NCBI GenBank assembly: GCA_965153355.1
Contig: OZ231126.1
Span: 43,772,001 to 43,836,000 of the forward strand
Length of the DNA stretch: 64,000 nt
Direction of reading: 5' to 3'
From: Flaccisagitta enflata
Taxonomy: Eukaryota
Shown here piece by piece: positions 458-60,434 of this stretch. Position 1 is the stretch's first letter, and each line of letters starts with the position of its first letter. The notes beneath the pieces were generated by a model. The model did no database searches. It was not told the origin of the DNA and saw only the letters and a program-made list of their open reading frames with translations. The position numbers and the translations under genes are program-made.

Positions 458-747
458 GAGATATTCAGAGATTTAAGAGAACAAATATTGATACATGCTT
501 TCATTAATCAATTTGTCAACGCCGATTCTTTCTTTTCTTATTTACTTTTATGCATTTTTTGTGGTTTTTTTTTCATGCCATTCTGGGATTCTTTGATGAT
601 AATGATGATATCTTTTTTAATGATTTAGTCGAAGCAAAAAAATCTAAATAATATTTCAGGGAAAAGTTTTTTTGCTGATTCTGTTTGTTAAGATACGCTT
701 ATTCTTGTTGAAAAAAAAAAACAATCACTGATATCATTTTGAATATA

Positions 748-1309
748 CAGTATGATCCATCTCGACTGTAACATTTCGTGACGACATTGCTAAAAACGTA
801 ATAGAGATAATTTGATTCTGAAAAAAATATATGAAAAGTAACTGCTTGGCATTTTATGAAAAAGCATTTCTCAGGATTTTCTACCAAATTTTAGTGCCTT
901 TTACATAGAAGAGACTTTATGGCAAATTATACTAAAAAAGGTTATTTTTCTCTCTTTTTTTCAATAAACTGTATCCAATTGTGATTTTTTCTCATGTATG
1001 TCACAAACTAGATCAATAAGCTTTATATTTGAGACCTATCTGACATCAAAAGCCAAAAGCTATCAGAAAATTAAAGCAATGTCAAAAAAACATTTTTTTG
1101 ATAAAGTGATAAAATAGTATGTTTTGTAAAGTGTGATATTTGTTTAATTATATATTTAGGGGATTAGATATCCTTGAAAAGTCCTGGACACCTATTATCA
1201 TAAAATGCCAAACCGATACCTATCAGAGACTTTTTTCAGATTTGGATTATCTTTATTAGTTTTGGAGTTATGCCGTCATAAAATGTTACAATCGAGATGA
1301 ATCATACTG
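748..1309. mobile_element. Tc1/mariner-type MITE
   Basis: Imperfect TIRs cagtatgatccatctcgactgtaacattt... / ...aaatgttacaatcgagatgaatcatactg, with TA on both flanks. Confidence 0.85.
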
Positions 1310-1714
1310 TATTTTAAATGATCACCAACGCGATCAATTTGAGCAATTCAAACAAAACCAAAAGGATTCCTTGAAAAAAATCATTGTCATTAGAAATAAG
1401 GCAGATTTTACGAAATGGCTAGCTGTTTAACCCATCTTTTGTCCTTCTCTATCAGTCAGGGTTTGCGAGGCACTTTCATTCACTTTAGGTTTTAGTTATG
1501 AATATTTTACCACTAATCATTGTTGGCAACTAAAACAATTGAGTCAAAGACGTTTGACTCGTTCAAAATTCTCACTGCAACAGGGAGCCCACGAAATGAA
1601 TGAAGTTCATTGTGCTAATTAACACCTCAACTATTAATTGATAGTAAAAACCAATCGCCCAAACACGAATGCGAACAAAGACAGTGAAATACATGATCAA
1701 CTTCATTTAAAAAA

Positions 1715-2041
1715 TCAAAGATAGATTTTCCTTTTGTTTCCAATCCGTTTTCGGCAGATATGACACAAATAAATCTTTTCCGCGCACTCGAAACACGACA
1801 AATCCCCGCATTCAAAGGCGCAGTCGATCGGCTTCTCCAAACAAATCCCACATTCCAACAACGGAGAATGATGGGACGTTTGCCGCGTGGCGACGCCCGA
1901 CGGAGACTTGGCCGACGCTTTTCTCGCCGCGGTGGACGCGGTTAATGTCGCTTCAGTCATGGCAGATTCGACCGCCGCAATCACATCCGCGACTGCTTCG
2001 TCGTCCCAACTTCCTTCTGCTTGACAACGACGGTTATCGGA
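1715..2041 (-). CDS. C-terminal RING-finger segment (Mind-bomb/IAP-type RING spacing) of the LRR-filamin-RING gene
   Basis: LECGICLEKPIDCAFECGDLSCFECAEKIYLCHICRKRIGNKRKIYL*; the expected His ligand is Asp. Confidence 0.8.
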   Translation of the reverse strand, partial: SDNRRCQAEGSWDDEAVADVIAAVESAMTEATLTASTAARKASAKSPSGVATRQTSHHSPLLECGICLEKPIDCAFECGDLSCFECAEKIYLCHICRKRIGNKRKIYL

Positions 2042-5000
2042 CACTGTGCTTTTAAAACAATTCTGAGTGAAACGTCATATAACTGTGGGTTTTTCAGCAT
2101 TTTTGAGCAGTATTGGGGTGTGAGAGCATGTAACTAGCAAAAACAAAATCATTCCCTGAGCGCTTTTTGAATAATCTGCAAAATAGAAGAACCTTCAAAA
2201 TCAGAAAAAAATAGTCCTAATTTCAATGCAGATTCTTCTAAGATGTGTTGACTAAATTTCTGATTCTATATTGTTAATCTATGCAAAATTCCCTTTCATT
2301 TGATAGGTCGCACTCTATACTTTTGCAAAGAATTAAAATTTTTATTTTTTGAGTCACCGTTACAAAAAAGTAACGGTGGCTCAAAATATGAAAACCTAAT
2401 TTCTATATAAAACCATATAGTGTGACCTATCAAATGAAAGGAAATTTTGTATAGAATATCAATATGGAATCAAAAAATGAGCCAATACAACTTATTAGAA
2501 TCTGCATTACAAATAGGTTTAATTTTCTTCTATTTTGCAGATTATTCAAAAAGCGCTCGGGGAATGATTTTATTTTTGCTAGTTACATGCTCTAACATCC
2601 CAATACTGCTCAAAAATGCAGAAAAACCCACAGTTATATGACTTTCCACTGAGAATTTTTTTAAAAGCACAGTGCGGAGCTTATGTTGGGTTGATTTACG
2701 CTATTAGAGTCGAATGATGGTTCACTCGAATTGAGATCATTTTGTTCTTCGGGATCAATGGATAGGTCACCAAACAGAGAGTTCAGCCAAGGAGGGCTCG
2801 ATGCCTCATTTTCCGGCATCATTTCCATTGGGGGCGCGGTTGGAGTGATCTCATTCGACCAAAGTCTTCGTCGAAGAGGTGAGATGTACGACAATGAAGT
2901 GGATGATGAGGAAGGCGATGGCGACGACAATGGTGACTCTGGTGGCGATGGAGATTGGCTGATGAGTGGCAGATGAATGGCAGACCGGAATGGCAACGTT
3001 CTTGGAGGAATTTGAAGCGAGGAATAGATTGAGAACGTTTCCGAGGAAGTGGAAGATATGGATGACGATGGCGACTGCGATGGAGCAGATGGAAGTCTCG
3101 TAGGTGAGCGCTGCGAAAATGGCGGTGGTCGCGGCGGAAGTTGACAACGTGCGGTTAATGGCGGCAGTGGTGGGCGATGTGGGGAAGATGGTGGCGAGGA
3201 TGTCTGAGTTGCCGATACCGATGCCAATGATAATGTGGATATTGTTGATGCCAAGGAATACACCGATCGATTTGACATTTGTGATGACAAAGAGTCTGTT
3301 GACGTTGCTGATCTCGAGGATGACACCGATAGATTGGATGTTTGTGATGACAAAGACTTTGACGTTGTTATGTGCGGCGGAGACACCGAGTTAGACGCCG
3401 ATGGAAGAGACGAAATCAGGGCGAATTCACCTCGATTTCGGGTTATTTTCACGTGATAAGGGCTCCCGGGAACGTGGAGTCCGGACCATTTGACTTGAAT
3501 GATGTAGTCGCCGGATTCCGTTGGTTTATATAGGCACAAAATGTTTCTTCTCCAACCAAAAGTGTTACTCTCAAATTTATTCATTTTCACCGTTAATGCC
3601 CCCATGGGACCTTTGACATTAACGGTCAGTTTACCGTCTCCCGCGCCCGTTGTTTCGCACGAAAATTTACCTTCAAAGACTGGTAGATATCCGTCTTCCA
3701 GCCCTGGTCCACTGGCTTTGACCTTGGAGGCATTGGCAGATGACGGCGTCCAAAACAGGGTCGAGGCTAACGTCGACGAAGGGTTGGAAGGGAGTTGATG
3801 TGATGAGGAAATGGAAGAAGAAGCAGACATTGTTGATGGTCGAGGCAGTGATGGTGGAGGTGGTGGTGGTGGGGGTGGTGGTGGTGGTGCAGGTGGTGGT
3901 GGCGGTGGTGGCGGTGGTGGTGCAAGCGACTTGGTGAATGATAATGATGAAGATGATTCGGGAGATGAACGTTTTTTTAGAGGAGTTGAAGATTTTGTCA
4001 CAGGAGGTGGTTGTGTTGGTTTGGACGGAAGCAAGCGAGATTTTAGGGTGGAAGCTGAGGCTTCTTCTTTACCGCTGATTTGGCAAGATGGTTTGATCAC
4101 GGTTTGATGCACGGGACGAAAGCTCAAACCAAACCTCGAAGATGGCATCACATGGTCATGGTCAACGGAATGGTTAGGAAAAGGATCGGCGTGATCGACG
4201 GATTCATTGGTTAACGGATGTGGATGATCGAGGGAATGGTTGGGTGATGTAGGTGGACCATCTGAATGATTTTGTTGACACAAAGGTTTATCACGATTTA
4301 CATGACGTCGAAGATATTTTGCATAGATTGCCTCGGGAGAATATCTCAACGGGTTGTTGCCAAGAAAAACACTAACTGGATTCACATCATTAACCTTGGG
4401 GACAAAAAAAATGGCGGATTTTTGAAACCTTTCTTTTGAACCATAACGCGATAGAACGTATGAAAAATGGATTAAAATTGGTGATGCCTGTAAAGCCCTT
4501 CGAAAGATCTTTCATTTGAGTCGTGTCTGGTATCTGAAGCTTTATTCATTTAGAAATGGCATAGGTTTGAAGAAAAATATCACCGATTGGAAAAAGGGCA
4601 AATATTGTCTTTTTTTCGATTAGCAATTTTTGACTCAAAGTCTTTCTTAATAATGCAATTCAGAATTGTCACAGCTACTTGATATCCATGAGCAAATTAA
4701 AGAGCTTCGAATTTTCTTCAAAATGGCGTCAAGAATAAATTTTTTACTCAATGCGTTTAGTTTCTATGTTTCAACAAACAAAAACATGCAAATCCTATAG
4801 TGAATTCTCAAATTCCAGACAACCTGTCTTCATCCCAATGCCATTTCTAAACGAAAAAAGCTAGGACAACCAGCAACGTCTCATTTGAAAGATCTTTCGC
4901 AGAGCTTCAAAATGGTCACCGATTTTTTATAGTTTCATTCAATTTAAGGGAGATAGAGTTAGTTTTCCAAAATCCGCCATTTTTTATGTCCCCAAGGTTA

Positions 5001-5911
5001 CCAACCAAAACACAGCGTAAGTTGCCAATCTGACCTCCCGCAATAAAAAAGTCGATGACGGGTTCTAGCGGAATTTCCGTGATTTTGTTGTTTTCCAAGT
5101 CAACGAAGATTTTCGTTTGCGGGAATGACTTCTTCTGAATTCGTCCAGGAAAGAGAAATGATGGAGGCAGAGACTCGATGGAGCAGTCTGTTGCCATCAA
5201 AATCTGCAGAAAAGACCTCTCTGGAAGATCCGGCAATTGGCGCAACCCTAACGGAGCGTACATAATGATAGAGTGAAGAAGGCAAAAAAAACTTCTAGTT
5301 CTAGGTATAGCGTAAGAAATTTTACTAGTAGACTTTATCAGAAACATGTTTACAACATTTTGTCTATTTTGCACGATGTCTAAGTACTGACCTGTATTTC
5401 CCGAAACATAAACTTCCTTTAATCGATGAGAAAATAAGTTTTCCGGTAGCGACCGCAAATCACACTGGGATACGTTTAGGTACCATAGATGCACTCCTAG
5501 ACTGACACTTGGATAATCATTGACGATAGATTGCAGATATTTGTTACGATTGAGATAGATTTTGGCGAGCCACAAATTGTGGTACCAAAAACTCGGCTGA
5601 ATCAACCTCAAATCATTTCCAGTCAAGCTAATGACTTGGACAGCCGATAATTGAACCATCCATTCCGGGATAACGTCAAATTTGCAGTTTTTGGCGTCCA
5701 CCATCAAGACTCCAGACAGTTTCTCCACACCTTCGATTAATTTTATGGGTGTTTCATCCAAATGAAGCTGTTTGACGTTAGCTAGAGAATCTCCCTCCGC
5801 GTCGATAGTAATTTTGGACGGTGTAACACCGCTGTCCAAAACAGCCGAAATATAAAGATGTTCATTGTACATCAAATCTTGGATATTTTGCTCTGTGATT
5901 GAAATCGCCAT
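1715..5911 (-). CDS. LRR + proline/serine-rich + filamin repeat + C-terminal RING protein (putative E3 ligase), interrupted by two MITEs; may be a pseudogene
   Basis: The ORFs 4916-5911 (LRRs), 2661-4385 (poly-Pro, filamin repeat ...KWSGLHVPGSPYHV) and 1715-2044 (RING CGIC...CFEC...CHICR) join in frame when 4393-4998 plus TA and 2042-2674 plus CGGA are removed. The junctions read RCVLVGN|DVNPVSVFLGNNP and QPNISS|DNRRCQ, giving 984 codons. There is a probable in-frame GT-AG intron at 5248-5391. Confidence 0.75.
2042..2674. mobile_element. Palindromic MITE with CACTGTG...CACAGTG ends and a 4-bp TSD (Chapaev/CMC-like)
   Basis: The element is an inverted repeat over nearly its whole length. CGGA is present on both sides (2038-2041 and 2675-2678). 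Confidence 0.9.
2675..4392 (-). CDS. Middle segment (Pro/Ser-rich plus filamin/ABP280 repeat) of the LRR-filamin-RING gene
   Basis: 574-aa ORF containing ASKVKASGPGLEDG...FSCETTGAGDGKLTVNVKGP...YKPTESGDYIIQVKWSGLHVPGSPYHV, a filamin Ig-like repeat. Confidence 0.8.
4393..4998. mobile_element. MITE (TA-flanked, or piggyBac-like with TTAA/TTAC flanks)
   Basis: TIRs accttggggacaaaaaaaatggcggattt / aaatccgccattttttatgtccccaaggt, with further internal inverted arms (gaaagatctttc, catttgag). Flanks are TTAA on the left and TTAC on the right. Confidence 0.88.
4999..5911 (-). CDS. N-terminal leucine-rich-repeat segment of the LRR-filamin-RING gene
   Basis: Repeated LxxLxLxxN-type motifs (VKQLHLDETPI, VQVISLTGNDL, LWYLNVSQCDLRSLP, VDLENNKITEIP). 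Probable 144-nt intron at 5248-5391 (g|gtcagt...ttag|). Confidence 0.8.
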
Positions 5912-6514
5912 TTTTTATCATAGGGACGATAATGAAAAACTCGTTGTATTGGAGATTCCAAAATTGTTTTCGACAACCAAATTCCAAAGCAGAGGAGTCA
6001 AAACATATTCTTGCATAACCGGTTTTTTTTTTAAATTTGAACTTCAAAGTTCTCTTTTTGGGCATCGGTTCTGAGGGGAACAACATCCTGAAGAACGTAA
6101 TGAGACTTCTGTTTGTCAGTCTGACCGTCTGTCCTCAAGTTTGTTTGCATCTCCGATCATTCATGCCTCTGTATCACAGCGCGATACATGCCATGCCTCT
6201 CAAGCCTCAAATCAGCCTTCAATGCAATGGTGTGTTGTTTCAAAGCCGAATCAACAGTCATTTGTTTTTCTTTCCTGTTGCCCATTCTCCTGTTTCTAAA
6301 AATGGGTGCTGCTCCCTTAGGCCTTCAAATGTTCATTTGATTTTTAGTCGCGTTCGCGAAACCCAATAGTGATAAGTGTTACTAATGCCGAAGAAAAAAC
6401 CGGCTTCCCAACTCGCGTTGGGGTGGGCAGGTGTCAGGGGCAGAGATGAAATAGGCTAACTATGCATTTGGACAGGAACAGCAATAATAACCGTCCGTTA
6501 ACGCCCAAAAAGTA

Positions 6515-7073
6515 AACAGGTCACCCAAGGGCGCTAGGGCAATATGTGGTCAGCGATACCCGTTGCCCTGCTTTGCATGGTTGTGAATAGGAATGAGAGG
6601 AAGCAGGGCAGCGGCCTCAAAGGGAGATTTTTGATTGTTCGTCCATTTGTTCATCCGTCTGTTTGTCCGTCTGTCCATCCCCCCAGGCCCTCTCAGGCCT
6701 GAAATCTGTCCTCTCAGCTCAGACCTGAAATCTACCCTCTTAGTCCTGAAATCTGTCCTCGCAGGCCTTGAATCTGAGAGGGCAGATTTAAGGCCTTGGA
6801 GGACAGGTTTCAGGCCCGAGAGGACAGATTTCAGGTCTGAGAGGGCAGATTTAAAGCCTGAGAGGGCAAATTTCAGGCCTGAGAGGGCAAAGTTCCGGCC
6901 TGAGAGGGCAGATTTCAGGCTTGAGAGGGCAGAGTTCAGGCCTGGGAGGGCGGGTTTCAGGCCTGAGGGCCTAGGGGGACTAACAAACAAACCAACAAAC
7001 AAATGGACAAACGAACAAAATGTCCCCTGTGTTCTACAGGACTTCGTTCCCTCCGGGGCCGCTGCCCAAAAAA
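6515..7073. mobile_element. Dispersed repeat family A (asymmetric inverted repeats with an internal 20-21-bp minisatellite; Helentron/DINE-like)
   Basis: Shared ends (ggtcagcgatacccgttgccctgc...gcagggcagcggcc / ctacaggac...ggggccgctgcccaaaa) and tandem aggcctgagagggcagatttc units. Related copies lie near 8445-8910, 15557-15965, 22163-22400, 30159-30811, 54520-55120 and 55690-55810. Confidence 0.75.
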
Positions 7074-15525: not shown

Positions 15526-16221
15526 CGAGCTTCCACTTCTCCCTAAATTCTTTTCGGACAGCGGCCCCGAAGGGGACTTAGTCCTGTAGACCACAGGGGG
15601 ACTTATGTTTGTTAGTCCCCCACAGGCCCTCTCAGGCCTGAAATCTGCCCTCTCAGGCTTGAAATCGGCCCTCTCAGGCTTGAAATCTGCCCTCTCAGGC
15701 CTTGAATCTGCCCTCTCAGGCCTGATATATGCCCTCTCAGGCTTAAAACCTGTCCATTCGGGCCTTAAACCTGCCCTCTCCGATTCAAGGCCTGAGAGGG
15801 CAGATCTCAGGCCTGAGAGGATGGATTTCAGGCCTGAGAGGGCCTGGGGGGACTGACCGACGGATCCCCCTGGGATCTACAGGACTTCGTGCCCTTCGGG
15901 GCCGCTGCCCTGCTTCCTCTCATTCCAATTCACAATCATGCAAAACAGGGCAACGGCTATCGCTGTTTGTCCGTCTCGTTTTCTCTTTTGTAGTTAGACT
16001 TGGCCTTTATTCGATCGCGCAATGGGTCGGGGTTGAACTGATGAAGCTGAGGATGATAACATTGAATTGATGATAATGATGATCAGGTTGATGATAACGT
16101 TAATGATGATTGTGTCGATGGTGAGTAATGACCGTTGAGTCTACAAATTAAATTACGCACGAAAGGGCAATCACTATGCTTTAATTCTAATGAATTTATT
16201 GGATAAGGGCAAGTTTGCATG

Positions 16222-16836: not shown

Positions 16837-28966
<12,130 letters not shown>

Positions 28967-30158: not shown

Positions 30159-30811
30159 ACTAGTCATCCAAGGATCGCATATGGTCAGCGGTACCCGATG
30201 CCCTGCTTGGAGTGATCAGGTGAAGTAGTGAAGTGAGAGCAGGGCAGCGGCCCCAAAGGGCCGATGTCCTGTAGGCCACAGGGGGAAATTTCCAGACGTC
30301 CTGAGGGGTAATGAATCAGGCCCAAGAGGTAATTGAAGCGAGATTTGAGGTCTGGGGGAAAGATTTTAGGCCTGAAGATTAGATTTGAGGCCTGGGGGCA
30401 GGCCTGAGGCCTGAGGGGCAGATTTGAGGCCTGGAACACAGATTTGAGGTCTGGAGAGCTGATTTGAGGCCTGGAACACAGATTTGAGGCCTGGAGAGCT
30501 GATTTGAGGCCTGGGGCAGATTTGAGGCCTGGAACACAGATTTGAGGCCTGGAGAGCTGATTTGAGGCCTTGAGAGCTGATTAGAGTCCTGGTGAGCTGA
30601 TTTGAGGCCTGGAGAGCTGATTTGAGGCCTGGAGAGCTGATTTGAGAGCTTAGAGGGCCTAAATCAGGCCTGAGAGGATTTGAGGCCTCAACCGCCAACA
30701 GGGGGGGGGGACGGACGGCCGGACGGATGGACGGACGGAAGGACGGACGGACGTCTGGAAATTCCCCCCTGTGTCCTACAGGACATCGGCCCTTTGGGGC
30801 CGCTGCCCAAA
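30159..30811. mobile_element. Family A element, best-preserved copy, with a 20-bp gatttgaggcctggagagct minisatellite
   Basis: About 60-bp inverted repeats (30242-30301 vs about 30749-30808), one subterminal and one terminal; A/T-run flanks. Confidence 0.8.
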
Positions 30812-30869
30812 AACCAATACACAGTGCAGACGATCAGATACGTTCACTCACCAACCGCTTGCTTCACTA

Positions 30870-31646
30870 CAGGGTGTCCCAAGTCAGTTGCAACATAAAG
30901 AATCGACATATTTCTGCTTCTAAGTCCTCAAATCAATTTCTGAAAAAAGATCTGAAAAGATGTTGGTCTGCACTTTTTACATGCAAAATTTCATCATAAT
31001 CGGACAATTTCTTTAGGGGCCACATTTCTTTGAAATACACTAGTGATTTCTGACCATGTCTTTTTTTAGTCTTTTACTTTTTGCTGTACTTGGCAGTAGC
31101 TGTCTTTAATTGCTTGTCATTTTTCAACCAATTGAGCTAAAACCCTGCGATTGGTCTCAAATGGCAGATAATTTGTCATAGATTTTGAATCACCAAAAAA
31201 ATTTGACAATTTTCCAAGATTTGATAAAATTTTCATTGTTTTTTTCAAGATTTTCACTTTTGATTTTGATAATTTTAGACAAAAAACATCAATAAAGTCA
31301 TAAATTATCAAAAATTTCCAAGATTTCGATGCAGATGTACAATCTATGTACAATTATCTTTCATTTGAGACCAATCCCAGGTTTCTGAATCAATTTGTCA
31401 TAGAAAGGCAGAGATTTAAAGTCAGCTACTTTCTAATACAGCTGTAAAAAAGATGATTTTCCACTTAATGTTACCACTCATTTGATGTTCTTCTGACCCA
31501 CAACTATCCAATACTCCAAGTGGAAGCTTGGTATGACAAAAAGTGCAGACCTAGATCTTTGTAGATCTTTTTTCAGAAATCAATTTGAGTTCCTAGAAGC
31601 AGAGATATGTCGATTCTTTATGTTGCAACTGACTTGGGACACCCTG
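30870..31646. mobile_element. Tc1/mariner-type MITE
   Basis: ta|cagggtgtcccaagtcagttgcaacataaagaatcgacatat ... atatgtcgattctttatgttgcaactgacttgggacaccctg|ta. Confidence 0.92.
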
Positions 31647-31717
31647 TAGTAGACGAACATTAAACAGGTGACGCGGGGTCACAACATCGTTGCGGATGGG
31701 ATTATTTTCTCGTACAG

Positions 31718-32912
31718 CCAAGGCGCGCGCTTCAAGCGTTCTTCTTCCTCTCCCAATACCAACGACCGTCCCACTAAGGGCCACGGATTGCGCTAGATGG
31801 CTCCTTGGGTATTTGGGTGAAAATTTTCATCTCTGCTATATGGCTCAAACTTAGTAGATTGGTCATAGTAGTATTTGAGCATATATTACCGGTCCATATG
31901 ACAGGTTTTATGGCAATTAAGAGTGAAAAAAGGCGACCTAAATGGACATTACTACGAAAAATGCTAAATTTCAAGAAAAATCAATGAATTTTTTGGATTA
32001 TCTGTTACGATTTCAAAAAGCTCATGATATCTTCAATGTTGGATTGGATTCCTTCATTTATGTTTACATGTCTGGAAAAATTTAAAAAATCATTATTTTT
32101 TACATTTTTAGCACTATTAAATCATTCTACTTTCACTACATATTTGACCTAATTTGCATGCTTTTATTACCCTATAGATATAAAAAATCGCACAAGGACG
32201 CACAATGAGCGACCTATGCCAAAATGTAGTGCAAGGGGTCCTGAATCCAGAATGGTATGGCTCAAGTGGGCCTTCAACGTCCAAACTGCGATTTTTTTAG
32301 CCTAAAATGGACAAGTAATAATGTGGGTAAAAGTAAAAATCTATATTTGATTGGAAGAAAAATGAGCAAAATGAGCTAAATGAGCAAAAAGAATGATATT
32401 TTTTGAGCACGTTATTAAGGAATCTTATTGAACAAAGACAAAAATCTAAATGATTTGGTCAAAACAACAGACAATTTAAATACTAAATGTAAGAGAGTTA
32501 GCAGTATTTTTCACTTCATTTTTTTAGATTTCTCTTCTTTTGTACTCTATGCTCATAAAGCTCTTAGTCCAATAGAAATGAGTCAATATTGGGTAAAAAT
32601 AGTTTCATAACGTCTGAAAATATGCAGAAAAATGTTTTTCACTCTGTATATTTCATAAGGAATAATGTAATGGAAAAGATGTAATGTTGATCCCCAGTGA
32701 GCCACCTAGCGCACAATGCAGCCCACAGTGCGTCCGTTCGTCAACAGGACCGAACTCTCTCTGCGGCCGAGGTGAGGGGAAAAAAGGGAATCGCGATTAC
32801 ATTCACATTGCATCTCATCTAGACTTAACAGGGGCGAGCGTAATGGGAGGATCGACTTAGATAAGTCTTTTGTGCCCTCTTCCAGCGACTGAGACAATTA
32901 TCAGCCATGCGC

Positions 32913-32943
<31 letters not shown>

Positions 32944-32952
32944 AAAGAAACA

Positions 32953-32984
<32 letters not shown>

Positions 32985-32986
32985 CT

Positions 32987-33036
<50 letters not shown>

Positions 33037-33392
33037 AAGAGTTGAGTTGATGTGCACACACAAAAAGAGACACCATGGACAGATGGACAGACGGACAAAC
33101 CGACGGATGGACAAAGCATCTATGTATGAAAACAGAAACTTGCATCGGTTGTCATTCGCTGGTTTTTCGGCAGGTGGCGAAAGTTATCGGCGCTCGATGG
33201 TCTCAACTCTCTGAGGAAGACAAACGTCCGTACCAACAACAAGCGGAGCAAGAGAAAGCCCGCTACAAAAGGCAGATGGCAGAAGGGAGACGCGGCAACA
33301 TGTTCTACTGGATGGCCGCCCCGAATCGGGGCCCGATGGCACACCAACAAGAAGATGAAGAGGAAGAGGAAGAAGAGGCAGATGACGATTAA
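31718..33392 (+). CDS. HMG-box protein with an acidic C-terminal tail (HMGB/HMG-D-like); box exon split by a transposon; 5' exon not located
   Basis: 31718-31771 + 32736-32771 + 33174-33392 gives PRRALQAFFFLSQYQRPSVRQQDRTLSAAEVAKVIGARWSQLSEEDKRPYQQQAEQEKARYKRQMAE...EDEEEEEEEADDD*. Canonical GAG|GTGAGG...ggcAG intron at 32772-33173. Confidence 0.85.
31772..32730. mobile_element. Transib-like non-autonomous element (CAC...GTG ends, 5-bp GC-rich TSD)
   Basis: About 39-bp imperfect TIR (cactaagggccacggattgcgctagatggctc vs the reverse complement cactgtgggctgcattgtgcgctaggtggctc). CGTCC is duplicated at 31767-31771 and 32731-32735. Confidence 0.85.
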
Positions 33393-33806
33393 TTGCGGCA
33401 TAGAAACCATAGAAAACTGCAAGGCGTCGTTTAATCGTTACACTATTTCTCTATTTTTTTTTATCTTGTCATGTCCGTTGGTACATGGTTCATGCATGTT
33501 CATGACTTGAAACTCATCACTTTGATGATGGGTCGCTTCCTCGTCTTACTCTCAGATAATGGGAAATTATCTGTGTCAAAGAAAGTCGAAATAGAAAAAA
33601 TATACATGGCTACCCCAGTCACGTGCGGGGGGGGGGGGGCAGGAGCAGTGCTGTAGAAGGTGACCAGAGCATTTGGGAGGGGCTAAAAAGCTTAAAAAAT
33701 GCCAAAAAACAAAAAAAAAACAGGGGATCAACCAACCAACCAACTGACCGGCCGACCGACCCTCCAAGCGACCTAGTGACCGACATTGCGGGTGTAGAGT
33801 CACGTA

Positions 33807-34421
33807 CAGTACCTTCCGAGCAAACCCGGCTAAAACTGGAGGATTAATTTTTGTTACTTTAATTTCATTTTCCAAACTTCATTTTTTGCATCTAACTTAA
33901 TTTAAAGATAATTAATTCCTTGAACATATTTGGCTGTCAAAAAAAAAAATTTGTGATATCAAAGTGCATGAAGACATCAATATGGAGTGTTCTGACCCAG
34001 ACCATTGGATTCAGCAAAAAATTTTACCTACCCTAGACTACAAGAACAGCTAAATCAGACAATCATTTTAGGTTTTATGGTCATTTGAAGTTTTTAAGGA
34101 CAATTGTCCTAAATTATTTTGAGACAATTGTTCTTAAAAACTGAAAATAGCTGTAAAACCTGAAATAATTGTCTGATTGAGCTGTTCTTGTAGTCTTGAA
34201 TAGGTAAAATTTTCTGCTGAATCCAATGGTCTAGGTTAGAACACTCCAAATTGATTTCTTCATGCACTTTGATTTCACAAGTTATCTTTTTTAACAGCCA
34301 AATATGTTCAAGAAATTAAGTATCTTTTACTTAAGATAGATAAAGAAAATGAAATTAGGGAAATGAAATTATAGTAACAAAAATTAATCCAGTTTTAGCC
34401 GGGTTTGCTCGGAAGGTACTG
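33807..34421. mobile_element. Palindromic Tc1/mariner-type MITE nested in a family B element
   Basis: ta|cagtaccttccgagcaaacccggctaaaactgga ... tccagttttagccgggtttgctcggaaggtactg|ta; it splits agtcacgta...gcacgcgact. Confidence 0.92.
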
Positions 34422-35612
34422 TAGCACGCGACTAAAAATTATCGAGATGGCTCAGATACAAAATTAAGAACAAATTTGCATTTATTTACCAAGAGTACTA
34501 AGTTTAGCCAATGTTACTAAAAAACTGTTTTTGAAAATTTGTACTTATTTTATTTTTGGTCACTAACAGGGGGCTGGTTGAAATTCTAAATTTGTATAGG
34601 AAATGAAAAAGAAATAAAGAAAATAGTTTTATTTCCAAATCGATTACAGAGAGAACTATGTTTTTCAAAATGCAAATTTTCCCTGTGTTTGGCTTTCTTA
34701 GAATTTCGACCTCAGTGAATGAAAAAAAGTGTAAGCAAAAATTCACTAACAAACATCATTTTCCTGCTTGAATTCTTGTGAATCGCACTCATCCTATGTG
34801 ACAATATGACATCAGCACAGAAACTTGGAATTCTACGTATTCTGCGTATAATGACTGATAGACAGGCCGAGAGACGAACCGAGTCGCACACTCACAGTCT
34901 CACACAGCCTCTTAATCAAATCAAAATGTTTTTTCTGGAGAATTTGTTTCTCTCCGAGATTGAGGTCCCTTGGCGACCTAGTTTTTCTCGGAGTCAGGAT
35001 TAACCCTCATATCTGTCTTGCTTGTGATCTCTCCGATTCTGACTCTTTAAATCAGTGTGTCTCTTCGTTTTCGTTTATGTCTATCCTTTTCTGTCTGTCT
35101 GTCTGTCTGGATCTCTTTTTTTTATTTTTTTATTTTTTGCTTATGTCCATCCTTTTCAGTCTGTCTGTCTGTTTTTCTGTCTATCTGTCTGACAATCTGT
35201 AATGCTGTGTTTTTGTCTTTGTTTAGAAGCGTCATCTGAGGTCTAGATATGAAAGTCTTTCCGTCACGTATTCCGTCCGCCAGTCTGTTGCGCCTCTTAA
35301 TAAATCGAGCTAGTTTCCTCTTGACTTTCTTTTTGCTATATCCCTCTATAAGAGGGTCTGTCCGTCCGTCCGTCCGTCCGTCCGTCCGTCCGTCCGTCCG
35401 TCCGTCCGTTACGCCTGTGCAAAAAAACATGTTTCACGGCTGCTTTTGGCCACGGTGAGATCCTACACTGAATTAAAATGATCGACAAACATGTTTTGAG
35501 TGCCTCTCTTACTACTCTGTCATTTCATCTGTCAGTTCGTCCATCTGTCCTGTACATGTCACATGTTCAATAAACGCAGACACAGTCCGGACGCATCGTT
35601 GCATATGCCGTG

Positions 35613-41025: not shown

Positions 41026-41176
41026 GCGTGTGTGTGTATGGAGGAACAAAACGTCAAAACATATATGTGTTCGTTGGTATGAATGTATCATGTATCGATT
41101 GCATTATGCTTACACATGCTTGTAAATGCACCCGAGTCACTTGCCAAAACACCTTACTTTGGTTTAAAGTCATATA

Positions 41177-41734
41177 CAGTAGATCTCGTCTAGACTTGAG
41201 ATAACGGGGGCAAGCATTGTCGAAACACAAATGAAGCCAGGGGAGTGATATTTTAATACTAATAAAGTGATGGTTTATTGCCCATGATAGCTGGTTGCCA
41301 TGGAAACGTATTTCTATGTATTTTTGCTAAAATATCAATATTTTGAGAAATTTTTTGAGGGAACATTTTTTAAAATTAAATTTGCTACAACTTTCCCACA
41401 GTATGTTCTGTAAGAATGTCGCTCGTTTAGCGGTTGCTAGGGGTCGTCACACATGGATACGCTCCCTAGCAACGGCCAAACGAGCGATATTCTTACAGAA
41501 CATACTGTGGGAAAGTTGTAGCAAATTTGATTTTAAGCAATGTTCCCTGAAAAAATCTCTCAAAATATTTATATTTTAGCGAGAATACATGGAAATGTGT
41601 TTCCATGGCAACCAGGTATCATGGGGAATTAAGCATCCTTTGATTAGTCTATGATCCAAATATCGCTCCCCTGCCTTCATTCGTCTTTCCACAATGCTTG
41701 CCCCCGATACCTCAAGTCTAGAGGAGATCTACTG
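41177..41734. mobile_element. Fully palindromic TA-flanked MITE
   Basis: ta|cagtagatctcgtctagacttgag ... ctcaagtctagaggagatctactg|ta, with arms continuing to the centre near 41455. A truncated left end of the same family lies at about 57994-58050. Confidence 0.92.
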
Positions 41735-42079
41735 TACACAAATCCCTTCGTCTCCAACTGTCTAAAACAACCATTTCTTTAATTTGTTTCTTGCAATTTC
41801 GTTGAACATTTTTTCCACGGGACCACCTGAGGCTCGGAAATCGCAATCATCAAAATGTTTTGTACGCTTTCGAGTAAAAATCTGCGCTTCCTTTAATCCA
41901 AAGGAAGCGAAGGCAACAACTACAAAGACAACGATAACTACAACGTCACGAATACGCCACAAAAACGCCAACGACGACGCCAACACCGACGCCAATGCAA
42001 CGACAACGGCAACGCCAACGGAAACGCCAACGCCAATGACAGGCTGTCGACAGCGCCATGGACATCGATAACAACAACG

Positions 42080-46571: not shown

Positions 46572-47565
46572 AATGTTAGCTCGGTCTAAAGTAACGCGCT
46601 GTAACAATGTAAGCTCAAGGCCCATCTGAACAAAAGCACTGTATTATGTATCAATGTAAGCCCGGTCTAAAGTAATGCACTGTAACAATGTAAGCCCAAA
46701 CTGAACAAAAGCACTGCATCAATGTAAGCCCGGTCTAATGTAACGAACTGTACCAATGCAATATGAGTCTAATCTGAAAAAAGCTCTGTACCAACGTAAG
46801 ACCCCCTCTAGATTGAAGTAACGCACTGTTCGTGGCTTACTTTGCAACGGGCTCATACAGGGTGTTTCACATCAAATGATATATAAGAAAACGATGTCAT
46901 TTTGCTTCTGAAAATGAGGAAACAATTTTGTAAAAAGATTCATAAAGTTTTTAAACTCTGATTTTTCCTGTAAAAATTTCATTGGTCTTAGTTGAGTAGT
47001 TTAGCCATAATATGAATTTGAAGTGAAATGAATATTTACAGTCAATATTTTTTTCATCCTGGAAATTTTTCTTCAAATTATTCTCACATCCAAACAGTTT
47101 GAGCTACAGATGCCAGATTGGTCTCAAATTAAAGATATTTTGTAATGTAATGTATTTCAGCAAGAGCATATACATAAGCACAATTGCCGTGGAAGCTAAA
47201 AGAAAATCCAAAGATTTTTTTCCATTGAGGTCCACAATTTTAATTTTCTTTCACTTGAGTCTAATCTGGCATCTGTAGCTCAAACTGTTTAGACGTGAGA
47301 ATGATTTAAAGAAAAACTTCCAGGATGAAAAACACATTGACTGTAAATATTTATTTAATTTCAAATCAATGAAATTTTTACATGAAAACTTGGAGCTTAG
47401 GAGCTCAATAAATCTATTTTCAGATTTATTGTCTTATTCTTAGAAGCAGAACAACATCGTTTTCTTATATATCATTTGATGTGAAACACCCTGTAGTGTG
47501 CGTGTACTGCTTTTGTAAGCCCGGTCTAAAGTAAGGCACTGTAACAAAGTAAGCCCGATCTGAAC
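46572..47565. repeat. About 33-bp degenerate minisatellite (aatgtaagcccggtctaaagtaacgcactgtaac) split by a MITE
   Basis: Units occur on both sides of the 46858-47493 insertion. Confidence 0.7.
46858..47493. mobile_element. Tc1/mariner-type palindromic MITE
   Basis: ta|cagggtgtttcacatcaaatgatatataagaaaacgatg ... catcgttttcttatatatcatttgatgtgaaacaccctg|ta. Confidence 0.92.
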
Positions 47566-53795: not shown

Positions 53796-56700
53796 ACATC
53801 AAACAAATGAAATACAAGCAAAATGTTGCATATTCTTGAACCTTAAGGTATGTACTTTCAGGAAAAAAAAAGTTCTCTAAAATCCGCCACCAGGAACATT
53901 GCTAAAAAATAGGCTAAAAAGTAGCTATATAATGCGACATTAATTGTAAAGAATAGAGCGCATACCCAATGAGTTGTAGGCCAAATTTCCAAAAAAATCA
54001 GAAATAGTTTTTCAAAAATATGCTCTGTATTAAAACACAATTGATCTGAGCCAAAAACCTTGACTAGCTATCCTCCTGGGCAATATTGTCATATTCATGA
54101 TCCGGGTATGCTTAATGGAATTAAAGTAACATCAAAAATTTTTAGGAGCCTTTTATAATCCATAATGGACTGATAGAAAACCTTGGAAATGATCTAGTAA
54201 GAACGACATTTGATGGTTAAGTATGAAAATTGAGATATAGGGGATGGGAGCCCCTGAGGAACCCTCCAAGGGCTTTGAAAGGGAACCCCCCCCCCCAAAA
54301 AAAGGCTGAAGATGATCAAAATCACAATTTATGGCGTTATCTCTGCTGATTAATGTCTTAAGAATATATTTGCTGTCAACATATTCTCATCTGGTAGTGA
54401 GGAACAGTAGCAAAGGTTAAGAGCCCCTGGGGGAGCCTATCTCGGAGACCCCTAAGGGCCCTTTAAAGCCAAACTGACTCACCAAAAGGCAAGAAATGAC
54501 CGAAAATAATGATTTTTTGGGCTGTGGCCTTGAAAGGAATAATTTTCTGTAGTACACAGGGGGACTTTCACTTGTGCGTCTGTCTATTCATTCATATGTG
54601 CATTCCTCCCATCAAGCCTTAAGCCTAAAATCTGCCCTTGAATCAACTATCTCAAACCCCAAATCAGCTCTCTTAAGCCTGAAATTGGCCCTCTCGGGCC
54701 CAAATGCAGCCCTCTTTGGCCTTTTAGGCAGCGGCCCTTAAGGGGACGATGTCCTGTAGAACACAGGGGGACTTTTGTTTGTTTGTCTATGGGTCCATGC
54801 GTGCCCCTCACCTTGAGGCTCAAATCCCAGCCTCAAGGCTAAAATCCAAGCTTCAAGGCTCAAATCCCAGCCTTTAGGCTCAAATCCCAGCCTCGAGACT
54901 CAAAATCTTAGCCTTGAGGCTCAAATCCCAGCCTGGAGGCTCAAATCCCAGCCTGGAGGCTCAAATCCCAGCCTCGAGGCTCAAAAAAACCGAAAGTCCC
55001 GTGTTCTACAGGACATCGTCCCCTTTGGGGCCGATGCCTTACTACCCATAATCTACATTCACCAACATACATAGCAGGGCAATGGGTATCGCTGACCACA
55101 TATCGCCCTTGGGCGCCTGGTTAGATCTCAAACTAGTCCTCCCAGGGCCTCTCAGATCAGTCCCCACAGGCAACAGATGACCAGGCAAGTATCCCCCTGG
55201 TGAGAGAGGGAATAAAATCAAATGGTTTAGAGATGGGGAAAAAAATCAAAAGCTTGAAAAGAAAATTTTTTTCGAAGATTTAGCACTTTTGATAATACCA
55301 AAAAGTAAAATTTGATTACTAAAACACAATTTATATTATAATGTTTTATTGCTTTGTGGGAAAGAAAACCATAGATTTTATAACACAATGCGATGCAGGA
55401 AAGAAAAGCAATGGGGGGAATAAAATCAAAACCCCCTCAATTATACACAATACTGATTACAGATCAGCACCCTCAGCCCTTTATCGGCCTTGTTCAGCCC
55501 TGTTAGACTTTCACATCCCCCTCTTACATCTCAAATCAGCTTTATTAAGCCTCATATCAGCCCAGCTAGGCCAAAAATCAGACCTTTCAGGTTTTGAAAC
55601 AGTCTTGAAGAGGTATTAAAAACATCATAGGCCTTCAACCAGCTATCTAAGGCCTCATAAAATCTTTGAGGTAAGACAAATAAAAGTCCCAAGTGTTTTA
55701 TAGGACATCATTACCATTGAGGCCACTGCCCTGCTTCCTTACACTTGGAGTCACAGTGAGGTACAGCAGGGCATAGGATACCCCTGACCAGATATTGCCC
55801 TTGGGTGACTGGTTTGTTGATGATCCATCTGTCCGTCCATCACACTTTTGAATTCCGAGTGTTTTTTGCATTACTGCTCTTGTCCAGCCGTCCACAACTG
55901 GATTGCCGTGTATCTGGCCTTGTTTACCATGAAAAGCAAAAAATCCATACGCATAAGGTTGTTATCAGATTAAATGCATTAAAACTCAAAGACTATTGTT
56001 TGCACAGAATTCTGATGCTTGCCATCTGAAAGAGCATAGTCATATTTACCCTGTTTATTTGATGCATAGGCTCATATGGCCCAAAAAAGCAGAAAAATCA
56101 GAAAAAGGGAAATCCGGTTATTTTTCTCTGCCAGTCAGAAAGCCAAAGGATATTTGATTCTTTTCTATTCTAGTTGCGGACACTCAATTTTATAAGAGGC
56201 TTTGTCCTTCTGTCAGTCTATTAGTCTGTCAGTCCAATGGTCCATTGGACCGTAATGCAAGAGTTGAAATTTGTAGAAATGCGCATTTGGATGTGTTAGT
56301 GTGAAGGGGTGAGGCTGGGGGTTGGATGCCCCTGCCCACCCATCTGCAACAATGTTGTGACCCTACCTCACTTGTTTCTAAACAATATTGTCACTGACAG
56401 GTGGGCTGGGGCAAACATCCCCCTTCCACGACCTTCTACACACTCAAACACATGCAGGTGTGGAAGTGCGCTTTGTAGGGAAAATGCACTTTTTTACTTG
56501 ATCATTACAGACCAACAGATAGACTGACGTACCGACAGACAGATCAACAGACCAAGGGACTGATTGATGGACAAAGCTTCTCATCGAGTTGCGAGCTCAA
56601 GATTAAAAAACATTTTTAATGCATGGTTTATCAACATTTCAATCGAAATTCAATCAAAATTTCATTGAAAATGCCTTTCTTACAATAGAAAAATATTGCA

Positions 56701-59813: not shown

Positions 59814-60434
59814 AAATGACAATAAACAATAAAATCAGAATTCTATGAGTAGTTCTTGTTGTATGGCTGTCTTGGGCTTCTAATGACATCAAATTTGGTC
59901 TGAAAGATTTGCATCTTGCTGGCCGCGCCTTACCTTGAACTTTCCTCAAGCCTATAGGAAACAAAAAAATTCAAGTTACTCAAATCTCATTTTTGACTGC
60001 ATATTTGAAATCTGCATGAAAAACTGATAATTGAAAGTGCTTTTCTTTTTTCAAAATTCCTTCGGGATCATAGTCAAAATTTATCTTGAAGATATGAAAA
60101 AAAGGTAAGTTCGGCGATTTTACATATAAATAAAAGAGAAAGGTAAGTTTTGCAAATTTTGATGCTTATTTTAAATACCTTCTAGTTAGAATATTGAAAA
60201 AAGGAAAACACTTTCAATTAACAGTTTTTTCTGCAGATTTCTAATCTGAAGTCAAAACAGAGATTAAAGCACTTTGAAATTTTTTGTTTCCCATAGAGGT
60301 AGGTTAATCTATGGGTATGGCGCGGAAAGCTTAATGCAGGATTTGAGTGGCAAAATTGATCTCAACAGGAGCCCAAGACAGCCCCACAGCATGAATTGCT
60401 TGTAGAATGCCACTTTTATTGCTTTTAGTCATTT
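59814..60434. mobile_element. Old palindromic MITE
   Basis: About 250-bp diverged inverted arms (ggctgtcttgggct / agcccaagacagcc; aattgaaagtg / cactttcaatt). Confidence 0.7.

What the first reader, a model, noticed from the sequence alone, without database searches (positions are those of the whole stretch)
1715..5911. Hidden 983-aa gene: three 'separate' ORFs become one frame when two MITEs are precisely removed
Seen: deleting 2042-2674 plus CGGA and 4393-4998 plus TA joins the LRR, filamin and RING ORFs with no stop or frameshift (4197-637-608 = 2952 nt = 984 codons). Two unrelated elements interrupt one reading frame that has otherwise stayed open over about 3 kb, although the MITE arms themselves are imperfect. 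Inference: either the elements are removed (by splicing or DNA excision) or the gene died very recently. Together with the HMG case, this makes three frame-interrupting MITEs in 33 kb.
Basis: partly seen in the sequence, partly recalled or inferred. Interest (0 to 1): 0.8.

Follow-up and report, generated by a model that had tools for sequence, protein, structure and literature searches.

The report
Transposon-broken allele of LRR-RING gene
The assembled chromosome carries a broken copy of an ordinary ubiquitin-ligase-like gene with two small jumping elements stuck in it, while other DNA samples carry the same gene without them, so this is ordinary insertion polymorphism and not a new way of editing genes.

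Summary
The arithmetic holds: removing both elements plus one target duplication each leaves 2952 nt with one terminal stop. But it is not a hidden 983-aa gene. An ordinary 144-nt intron (5248-5391) was missed, so the protein is 935 aa: LRR, filamin repeat, C3HC4 RING, from a large paralogue family. Both elements belong to high-copy MITE families and sit in what is one exon in paralogues. Precise empty sites exist as genomic DNA: element 1 in 2 of 3, element 2 in 3 of 3 DNA runs, on alleles with their own SNPs. The element-bearing allele looks decayed: it has Asp for the RING zinc-binding His, which 24 of 24 paralogue RINGs and the alternative alleles keep; its private changes are 9 non-synonymous to 3 synonymous. 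Best reading: a segregating double-insertion null allele sampled by a haploid assembly (0.85). In-frame cryptic splicing of both elements is possible on paper, with weak donors, and is untested: the one RNA run gave no reads. Low interest.

The parts
5392..5911 (-). Coding exon 1 (ATG at 5911), leucine-rich repeats
   Evidence: paralogue matches stop at the same residue
5248..5391 (-).
   Evidence: donor CAG|GTCAGT, acceptor TTAG|G; donor at the same place in 9 of 11 paralogues; frame-breaking indels in other alleles fall inside it
5001..5247 (-). Exon 2, first part (last LRRs); cluster of changes private to the element-bearing allele at 5030-5052
4393..4998 (.). Element 2: 606-bp MITE, TA target duplication (4391-4392 and 4999-5000); polymorphic
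   Evidence: empty site in X1, X2, X3
2679..4392 (-). Exon 2, middle part: LRR cap, Pro/Ser-rich linkers, poly-Pro, filamin repeat
3453..3737 (-). Single filamin repeat, 58% identical to the last repeat of a host filamin gene
   Evidence: Pfam PF00630 E 7e-15
2042..2674 (.). Element 1: 633-bp MITE (family length 616), CAC..GTG ends, 4-bp target duplication CGGA (2038-2041 and 2675-2678); polymorphic
   Evidence: empty site in X1, X2
1715..2041 (-). Exon 2, last part with C-terminal C3HC4 RING (about 1742-1855) and stop
   Evidence: Pfam PF13920 E 2.7e-6
1804..1804 (-). Codon 907: Asp in the assembled allele where the RING zinc-binding His stands in other alleles and paralogues
31772..32730 (.). 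Third, unrelated 959-bp element with 5-bp target duplication inside an HMG-box exon (separate gene)

Best explanation
The locus is a two-exon gene for a 935-aa LRR / filamin-repeat / C3HC4-RING protein, most likely a RING ubiquitin ligase in which the LRRs pick a substrate and the RING recruits an E2 (function inferred from domains). It belongs to a large, partly redundant family. On one haplotype, the one in the assembly, two non-autonomous DNA transposons of different families inserted into exon 2 (shown). The first insertion knocked the allele out, after which the second insertion and point changes, including loss of a zinc ligand, were free of selection (inferred; order unknown, and two single-insertion alleles could also have recombined). 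Uninterrupted alleles persist in the population (shown site by site) and presumably supply the function (inferred). Nothing removes the elements: the empty sequence is simply the pre-insertion allele.
For: Precise empty joints in DNA contigs: 2037>2675 in X1 (depth 136.6) and X2 (156.6); 4389>4998 in X1 (137.5), X2 (113.5) and X3 (3.3; another study). In X2 the joint depths equal the whole depth at the nearest flanking SNPs, all non-reference, so only empty alleles are seen there; in X1 several coding SNPs are about 50:50. Empty alleles carry linked SNPs, none a stop among the 31 coding rows shown. His in 24 of 24 paralogue RINGs and in X1 (half), X2, X3; Asp in the assembly. Changes where all three runs differ from the assembly: 9 non-synonymous, 3 synonymous, pN/pS about 1. 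Both elements are generic high-copy families with exact target duplications in 18 of 20 and 20 of 20 copies. Paralogues read straight through the element-2 site in 5 of 8 cases printed; two others are broken there themselves.
Against: No RNA evidence either way. Only 40 of 181 SNP rows and 15 of 34 joints were shown, the polarised counts are small, and pN/pS over all 27 codons is 0.65 (p = 0.20 against neutrality), so selection on the empty alleles is not shown statistically. No contig spans both sites, so a doubly empty haplotype is inferred from X2, not seen. If the elements' 2.3% and 3.0% distance from consensus were all time at this site, a neutral frame would stay open with p at most 0.05; at about 1% divergence p is 0.07-0.27. 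X1 may be the assembly's source, and X1 and X2 share a study.
Confidence: 0.85

Rival explanations
1. Splice rescue: the filled allele is transcribed and both MITEs are removed with cryptic sites, giving a near-normal in-frame mRNA (nascent, still polymorphic intron gain of the introner kind).
For: In-frame routes exist: for element 2 a host donor at 5005 with the element's own strong acceptor at 4395 (loses one codon); for element 1 a host donor at 2699 with an element acceptor at 2063 (no length change), the best-scoring of 90 pairs. The frame has no stop or frameshift despite elements 2-3% from consensus. Introners are enriched in aquatic species and can borrow sites from flanks (PMC9860276, passages).
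Against: Both donors score -1.7 and -1.9 against 4.6-8.7 for authentic family donors; for element 2 two better-scoring pairs are out of frame; about a third of pairs are in frame anyway (14 of 54, 26 of 90; crude matrix from recall). The allele has lost a RING zinc ligand. Only 2 of 38 other copies have 100 or more open codons on both sides, one in a retrotransposon ORF and one in a tandem repeat.
Confidence: 0.07
2. The elements are excised precisely from DNA (somatically or in the germ line), restoring the gene.
For: X1 shows both reference-type letters and empty joints.
Against: Both empty sites have lost one target duplication exactly, which cut-and-paste excision seldom does (established knowledge, recalled), for two unrelated families; empty-site contigs carry many non-reference SNPs, also seen in X2 and X3, so they are other alleles and not derivatives of the assembled one.
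Confidence: 0.02
3. The gene is non-functional in all alleles (a young pseudogene of a redundant family); the empty alleles are merely less damaged.
For: pN/pS over the 27 codons shown does not differ from neutrality (p = 0.20); 0 RNA reads; other family members are broken too.
Against: Empty alleles keep the RING His and family-typical residues at 239-241; no stop among shown rows; indels listed fall only in the intron, the elements or upstream, none in 2.8 kb of coding sequence. The RNA run also gave no reads on two families with thousands of copies, so it is no test.
Confidence: 0.06

Closest known systems
Polymorphic MITE and transposon insertions in a highly heterozygous marine invertebrate (Spadella cephaloptera Hox1 region, PMC2997562; abstract and first third of Results read)
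   Same: Haplotype-specific insertions, MITEs near genes, high allelic divergence; 10 of 19 insertions there were polymorphic.
   Different: In the part read, coding blocks were conserved; here two insertions lie inside one coding exon. Cited as a precedent only; the organism of this window was not determined.
Introner elements (PMC9860276; passages read)
   Same: TIR/TSD DNA elements inside a coding exon; in-frame splice routes can be drawn that use element and flank sites.
   Different: No splicing shown; weak donors; other copies are not in host exons; the carrier allele is decaying.
MITE families: CMC/Transib-like (CA..TG ends, 2-5-bp TSD; PMC12730594 passage) for element 1 and the HMG element; Tc1/mariner-like TA-target MITE for element 2 (label recalled)
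   Same: Short, non-coding, inverted arms, fixed length, high copy, exact target duplications.
   Different: No autonomous partner was looked for, so the superfamily is assigned from ends only; TA targets also occur in other lineages.
LRR-RING E3 ligases such as LRSAM1 (recalled)
   Same: N-terminal LRRs and C-terminal C3HC4 RING.
   Different: No SAM domain found by Pfam; a single filamin repeat and long Pro/Ser linkers instead; lineage-expanded family with no database homologue at E<=0.001 among longer proteins (weak test). Orthology not tested.

Membership tests
MITE (element 1) | Terminal inverted repeats, short, non-coding | tested here: met
   633 bp, arms match over 257 of 333 columns
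MITE (element 1) | Target-site duplication of fixed length and many same-size copies | tested here: met
   4-bp TSD exact in 18 of 20 copies; 40 scored of 2606 first-look candidates, 89-95% identical
MITE (element 2) | Terminal inverted repeats, TA duplication, many same-size copies | tested here: met
   TA in 20 of 20; 40 scored of 4983 candidates, 94-96% identical
MITE (both) | Autonomous partner transposase with the same ends | not tested
   no search made
Polymorphic insertion allele | Empty pre-insertion site with one target copy in genomic DNA | tested here: met
   element 1 in 2 of 3, element 2 in 3 of 3 DNA runs
Null allele | No functional transcript or protein from the allele | tested here: inconclusive
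   RNA run X23: 0 reads laid of 12.2 million read; indirect support from loss of the RING His
Introner | Element is spliced out of the mRNA | tested here: inconclusive
   no RNA reads
Introner | Usable splice sites at or near both ends | tested here: inconclusive
   acceptors present, donors weak (-1.7, -1.9 against 4.6-8.7, crude matrix)
Introner | Family copies recur as introns in coding exons of many genes | tested here: not met
   2 of 38 other copies have 100 or more open codons on both sides, neither in a host gene; only 38 of thousands of candidates examined
Element inside a pre-existing intron | Intron at that position in relatives; intron sequence left at the empty site | tested here: not met
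   5 of 8 paralogues printed read through the element-2 site, and L071 and L072 continue to the RING in one frame; empty sites rejoin the frame exactly
C3HC4 RING E3 ligase | Eight zinc ligands including His at position 4 | tested here: met
   met in the alternative alleles and 24 of 24 paralogues; the assembled allele has Asp
C3HC4 RING E3 ligase | Ubiquitin ligase activity | not testable with these tools
   needs an assay

The most novel reading that the evidence does not exclude
The doubly filled allele is still expressed in frame because each MITE is spliced out with one site of its own and one borrowed from the exon, so two independent intron gains are segregating in one exon of an animal gene, caught before fixation; the HMG-box insertion could be a third such case.
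Probability: 0.07. Interest if true: 0.6.

Novelty: new member of a known kind. Interest (0 to 1): 0.17.

Why it matters
As it stands it is a caution for annotation: a haploid assembly of a polymorphic, MITE-rich animal can show a live gene as three fragments, and gene counts or 'gene loss' calls from it can be wrong. It is also a tidy example of birth-and-death turnover in an expanded LRR-RING family. If the splice-rescue reading were true it would make intron gain by DNA transposons directly testable within one population, with filled and empty alleles side by side.

Tried and rejected
RNA test: polyA run X23 gave 0 laid reads from about 6% of the run, including none on the two high-copy elements; the tool marks this as no test, and I use it neither for nor against. 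Protein database search with exon 1 among longer proteins: 512 candidates, none at E<=0.001 (weak). ESM Atlas: only generic LRR clusters, no taxon or family information. No second close copy of the gene in the genome: best LRR paralogue 43% identical, filamin repeat found only here and in filamin genes, so 'broken recent duplicate beside an intact copy' is rejected. Arm imperfection as a clock: rejected, it is family-wide. Distance from consensus as time at this site: doubtful, since copies can derive from diverged donors (one HMG-element copy is 97% to the window copy against 92-94% for the rest). The first splice enumeration for element 2 had a frame error and was redone. Earlier notes of this scan: none by place or by words. 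Paper searches for segregating coding insertions and for MITEs spliced out in frame returned nothing close in the listings; these two searches do not show absence from print. Neighbouring 10 kb upstream of the window: no evident gene.

Full report
Observation. The window lies in a 794-Mb animal assembly of 9 contigs; the organism was not determined. Element 1 (2042-2674) has CGGA on both sides and element 2 (4393-4998) has TA on both sides. The remaining pieces are 911, 1714 and 327 nt, 2952 nt in all, and read in one minus-strand frame with only the terminal stop. Pfam finds LRRs, one filamin repeat and a C3HC4 RING in that order.

Correction of the gene model. The stretch 5248-5391 is an intron. 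It has a GTCAGT donor and a pyrimidine-rich TAG acceptor. The best paralogue matches to exon 1 end at the same residue, and 9 of 11 paralogues examined have a GT donor there. In runs X2 and X3 it has a 1-nt gain and a 47-nt stretch replaced by 8 nt, a net loss of 38 nt that would shift the frame if it were coding. The spliced frame is 935 aa, not 983.

The elements. Both are high-copy families: 2606 and 4983 first-look candidates, of which 40 each were scored, at 89-95% and 94-96% identity. I examined the top 20 loci of each. Target duplications were exact in 18 of 20 (4 bp, variable) and 20 of 20 (TA). The window copies are 2.3% and 3.0% from the consensus of the other 19, which have medians of 1.3% and 1.5%; that sample is biased to copies near consensus. 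The arm mismatches are shared by the family and do not date these insertions. Only 2 of the 38 other copies have 100 or more open codons on both sides: one lies in what reads as an LTR-retrotransposon pol frame (judged by eye) and one in a tandem repeat. CA..TG ends with a 2-5-bp duplication fit the CMC/Transib group (PMC12730594, passages); the mariner-like label for element 2 is recalled.

The gene family. Exon 1 has 138 matches and the RING 28 matches in the genome, each count including the gene itself; no close duplicate exists. Of 9 paralogue loci tried, 8 gave output: 5 read straight through the position of element 2, two break off there (L073, L075) and one hit was off target. L071 and L072 continue in one frame to the RING. 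The elements therefore sit in a single ancestral exon, not in old introns. The filamin repeat is found only here and in filamin genes and is closest (58%) to the last repeat of one of them.

The decisive test. Four runs were laid on 1400-6200. DNA contigs show the precise empty site of element 1 in X1 and X2 (skip 637) and of element 2 in X1, X2 and X3 (skip 608); X3 is a marine metagenome from another study, at depth 3.3, where single differences may be errors. In X2 the joint depths (156.6, 113.5) equal the whole depth at the nearest flanking SNPs, all non-reference. In X1 several coding SNPs are near 50:50, as for a heterozygote; X1 may be the assembly's source, and X1 and X2 share a study. 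Contigs at the empty sites carry their own SNPs, shared between runs, so these are pre-insertion alleles and not excision products of the assembled allele. No listed piece spans both sites. The seven listed small indels lie in element 2 (4), the intron (2) or upstream (1), none in coding sequence; 19 of 34 joints were not shown. The polyA run X23 gave 0 reads, even on the elements, and is no test.

State of the filled allele. Of 181 SNP rows 40 were shown; 31 are coding and touch 27 codons, 9 synonymous and 18 not, with no stop (pN/pS 0.65, p = 0.20 against neutrality). Where all three DNA runs differ from the assembly, the count is 9 non-synonymous to 3 synonymous (pN/pS about 0.97; small numbers, two codons mix rows). 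One of these is codon 907: the assembly has Asp where X1 (half), X2 and X3 have the zinc-binding His, as do 24 of 24 paralogue RINGs fetched (24 of 27 other matches). At 239-241 the other alleles match the A-F-L of paralogues L071 and L072 and the assembly does not. This is the pattern of a decaying allele.

Is the open frame surprising? With 4.6% of substitutions making a stop, a neutral frame stays open with p = 0.27 at 1% divergence, 0.07 if frameshifts come at 5% of the substitution rate, and at most 0.05 at 2.3%. The allele's private changes are about 1% of the coding bases that X3 covers (my estimate, a lower bound), and some will predate the knock-out. This is mild tension, eased by recombination with working alleles and by the fact that only still-open frames get noticed (inference). 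The window has about 12 distinct palindromic elements (14 rows less 2 nested); at that density two hits in 2.8 kb of unselected DNA has p near 0.1 (rough hand estimate).

Splicing. In-frame routes can be drawn for both elements: 14 of 54 donor-acceptor pairs for element 2 and 26 of 90 for element 1, about the third expected. For element 1 the best-scoring pair is in frame and keeps the length; for element 2 the element's end is a good acceptor, but the two best pairs are out of frame. Both in-frame donors score below -1.5, against 4.6-8.7 for authentic donors of the family. The matrix is crude and from recall (it gave the true acceptor only 0.8). Introners can borrow sites from flanks and are enriched in aquatic species (PMC9860276, passages), so the route is not excluded; nothing here supports it.

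The third case. A 959-bp element at 31772-32730 splits an HMG-box exon; its family has exact 5-bp duplications in 10 of 10 copies examined, of 1299 candidates. It is unrelated to the other two, and its empty site was not tested.

Mechanism and verdict. Shown: one gene, one true intron, two coding insertions, empty alleles in DNA, loss of a zinc ligand on the filled allele. Inferred: the intact allele encodes a RING ubiquitin ligase with LRR substrate binding; the filled allele is a null tolerated in a large family and in heterozygotes; the second insertion followed the knock-out or joined by recombination. Haplotype-specific MITE insertions in a polymorphic marine invertebrate are on record (PMC2997562, abstract and first third of Results). 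No supplements were read. Confidence 0.85; interest 0.17.

Noticed in passing
window 31700-33392 (+): HMG-box gene whose exon is split by a 959-bp CAC..GTG element with a 5-bp target duplication (31772-32730); family high-copy, 10 of 10 copies with exact 5-bp duplication. Polymorphism and expression untested.
   Followed up: partly
window 3453-3737 (-): The filamin repeat is 58% identical to the last repeat of a host filamin gene (G000 C2, itself present twice 18 kb apart) and is absent from the other family members found: a domain capture specific to this gene.
   Followed up: partly
G000-wide: Large lineage-expanded LRR family, 138 matches, with many on C8; several end in a near-identical C3HC4 RING. 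No database homologue found in one weak search.
   Followed up: partly
L075 6000-3900; L073 3430 onward: Two paralogues are also broken in exon 2 (frame lost after the last LRR, repeat DNA inside), suggesting frequent loss in this family.
   Followed up: partly
window 2042-2674: The window copy of element 1 has a 17-nt insertion relative to the 616-bp family.
   Followed up: no
window 733-1322, 30866-31650, 33805-34423, 41175-41736, 46856-47495, 59814-60434: Further palindromic MITE-like elements, several with TA ends; copies of elements 1 and 2 elsewhere often sit inside other repeats.
   Followed up: no
window about 17900-27340 (+): Multi-exon myosin-tail / paramyosin-like gene (Pfam Myosin_tail_1 on one exon); integrity not checked.
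   Followed up: no
window 22940-23392 (-): Short frame that reads like a C-type lectin domain (by eye), opposite the myosin-like gene.
   Followed up: no
window 28322-28966 (+): GC-rich 214-codon frame rich in Ser/Gly/Gln, possibly the first exon of the HMG gene or a separate gene.
   Followed up: no
window 6687-6970, 15600-15850, 22290-22390, 30240-30810, 54600-55600: Dispersed repeat family built on a 21-nt tandem unit with inverted ends.
   Followed up: no
L007 1500-2116: A copy of element 1 sits in an LTR-retrotransposon pol-like reading frame.
   Followed up: partly
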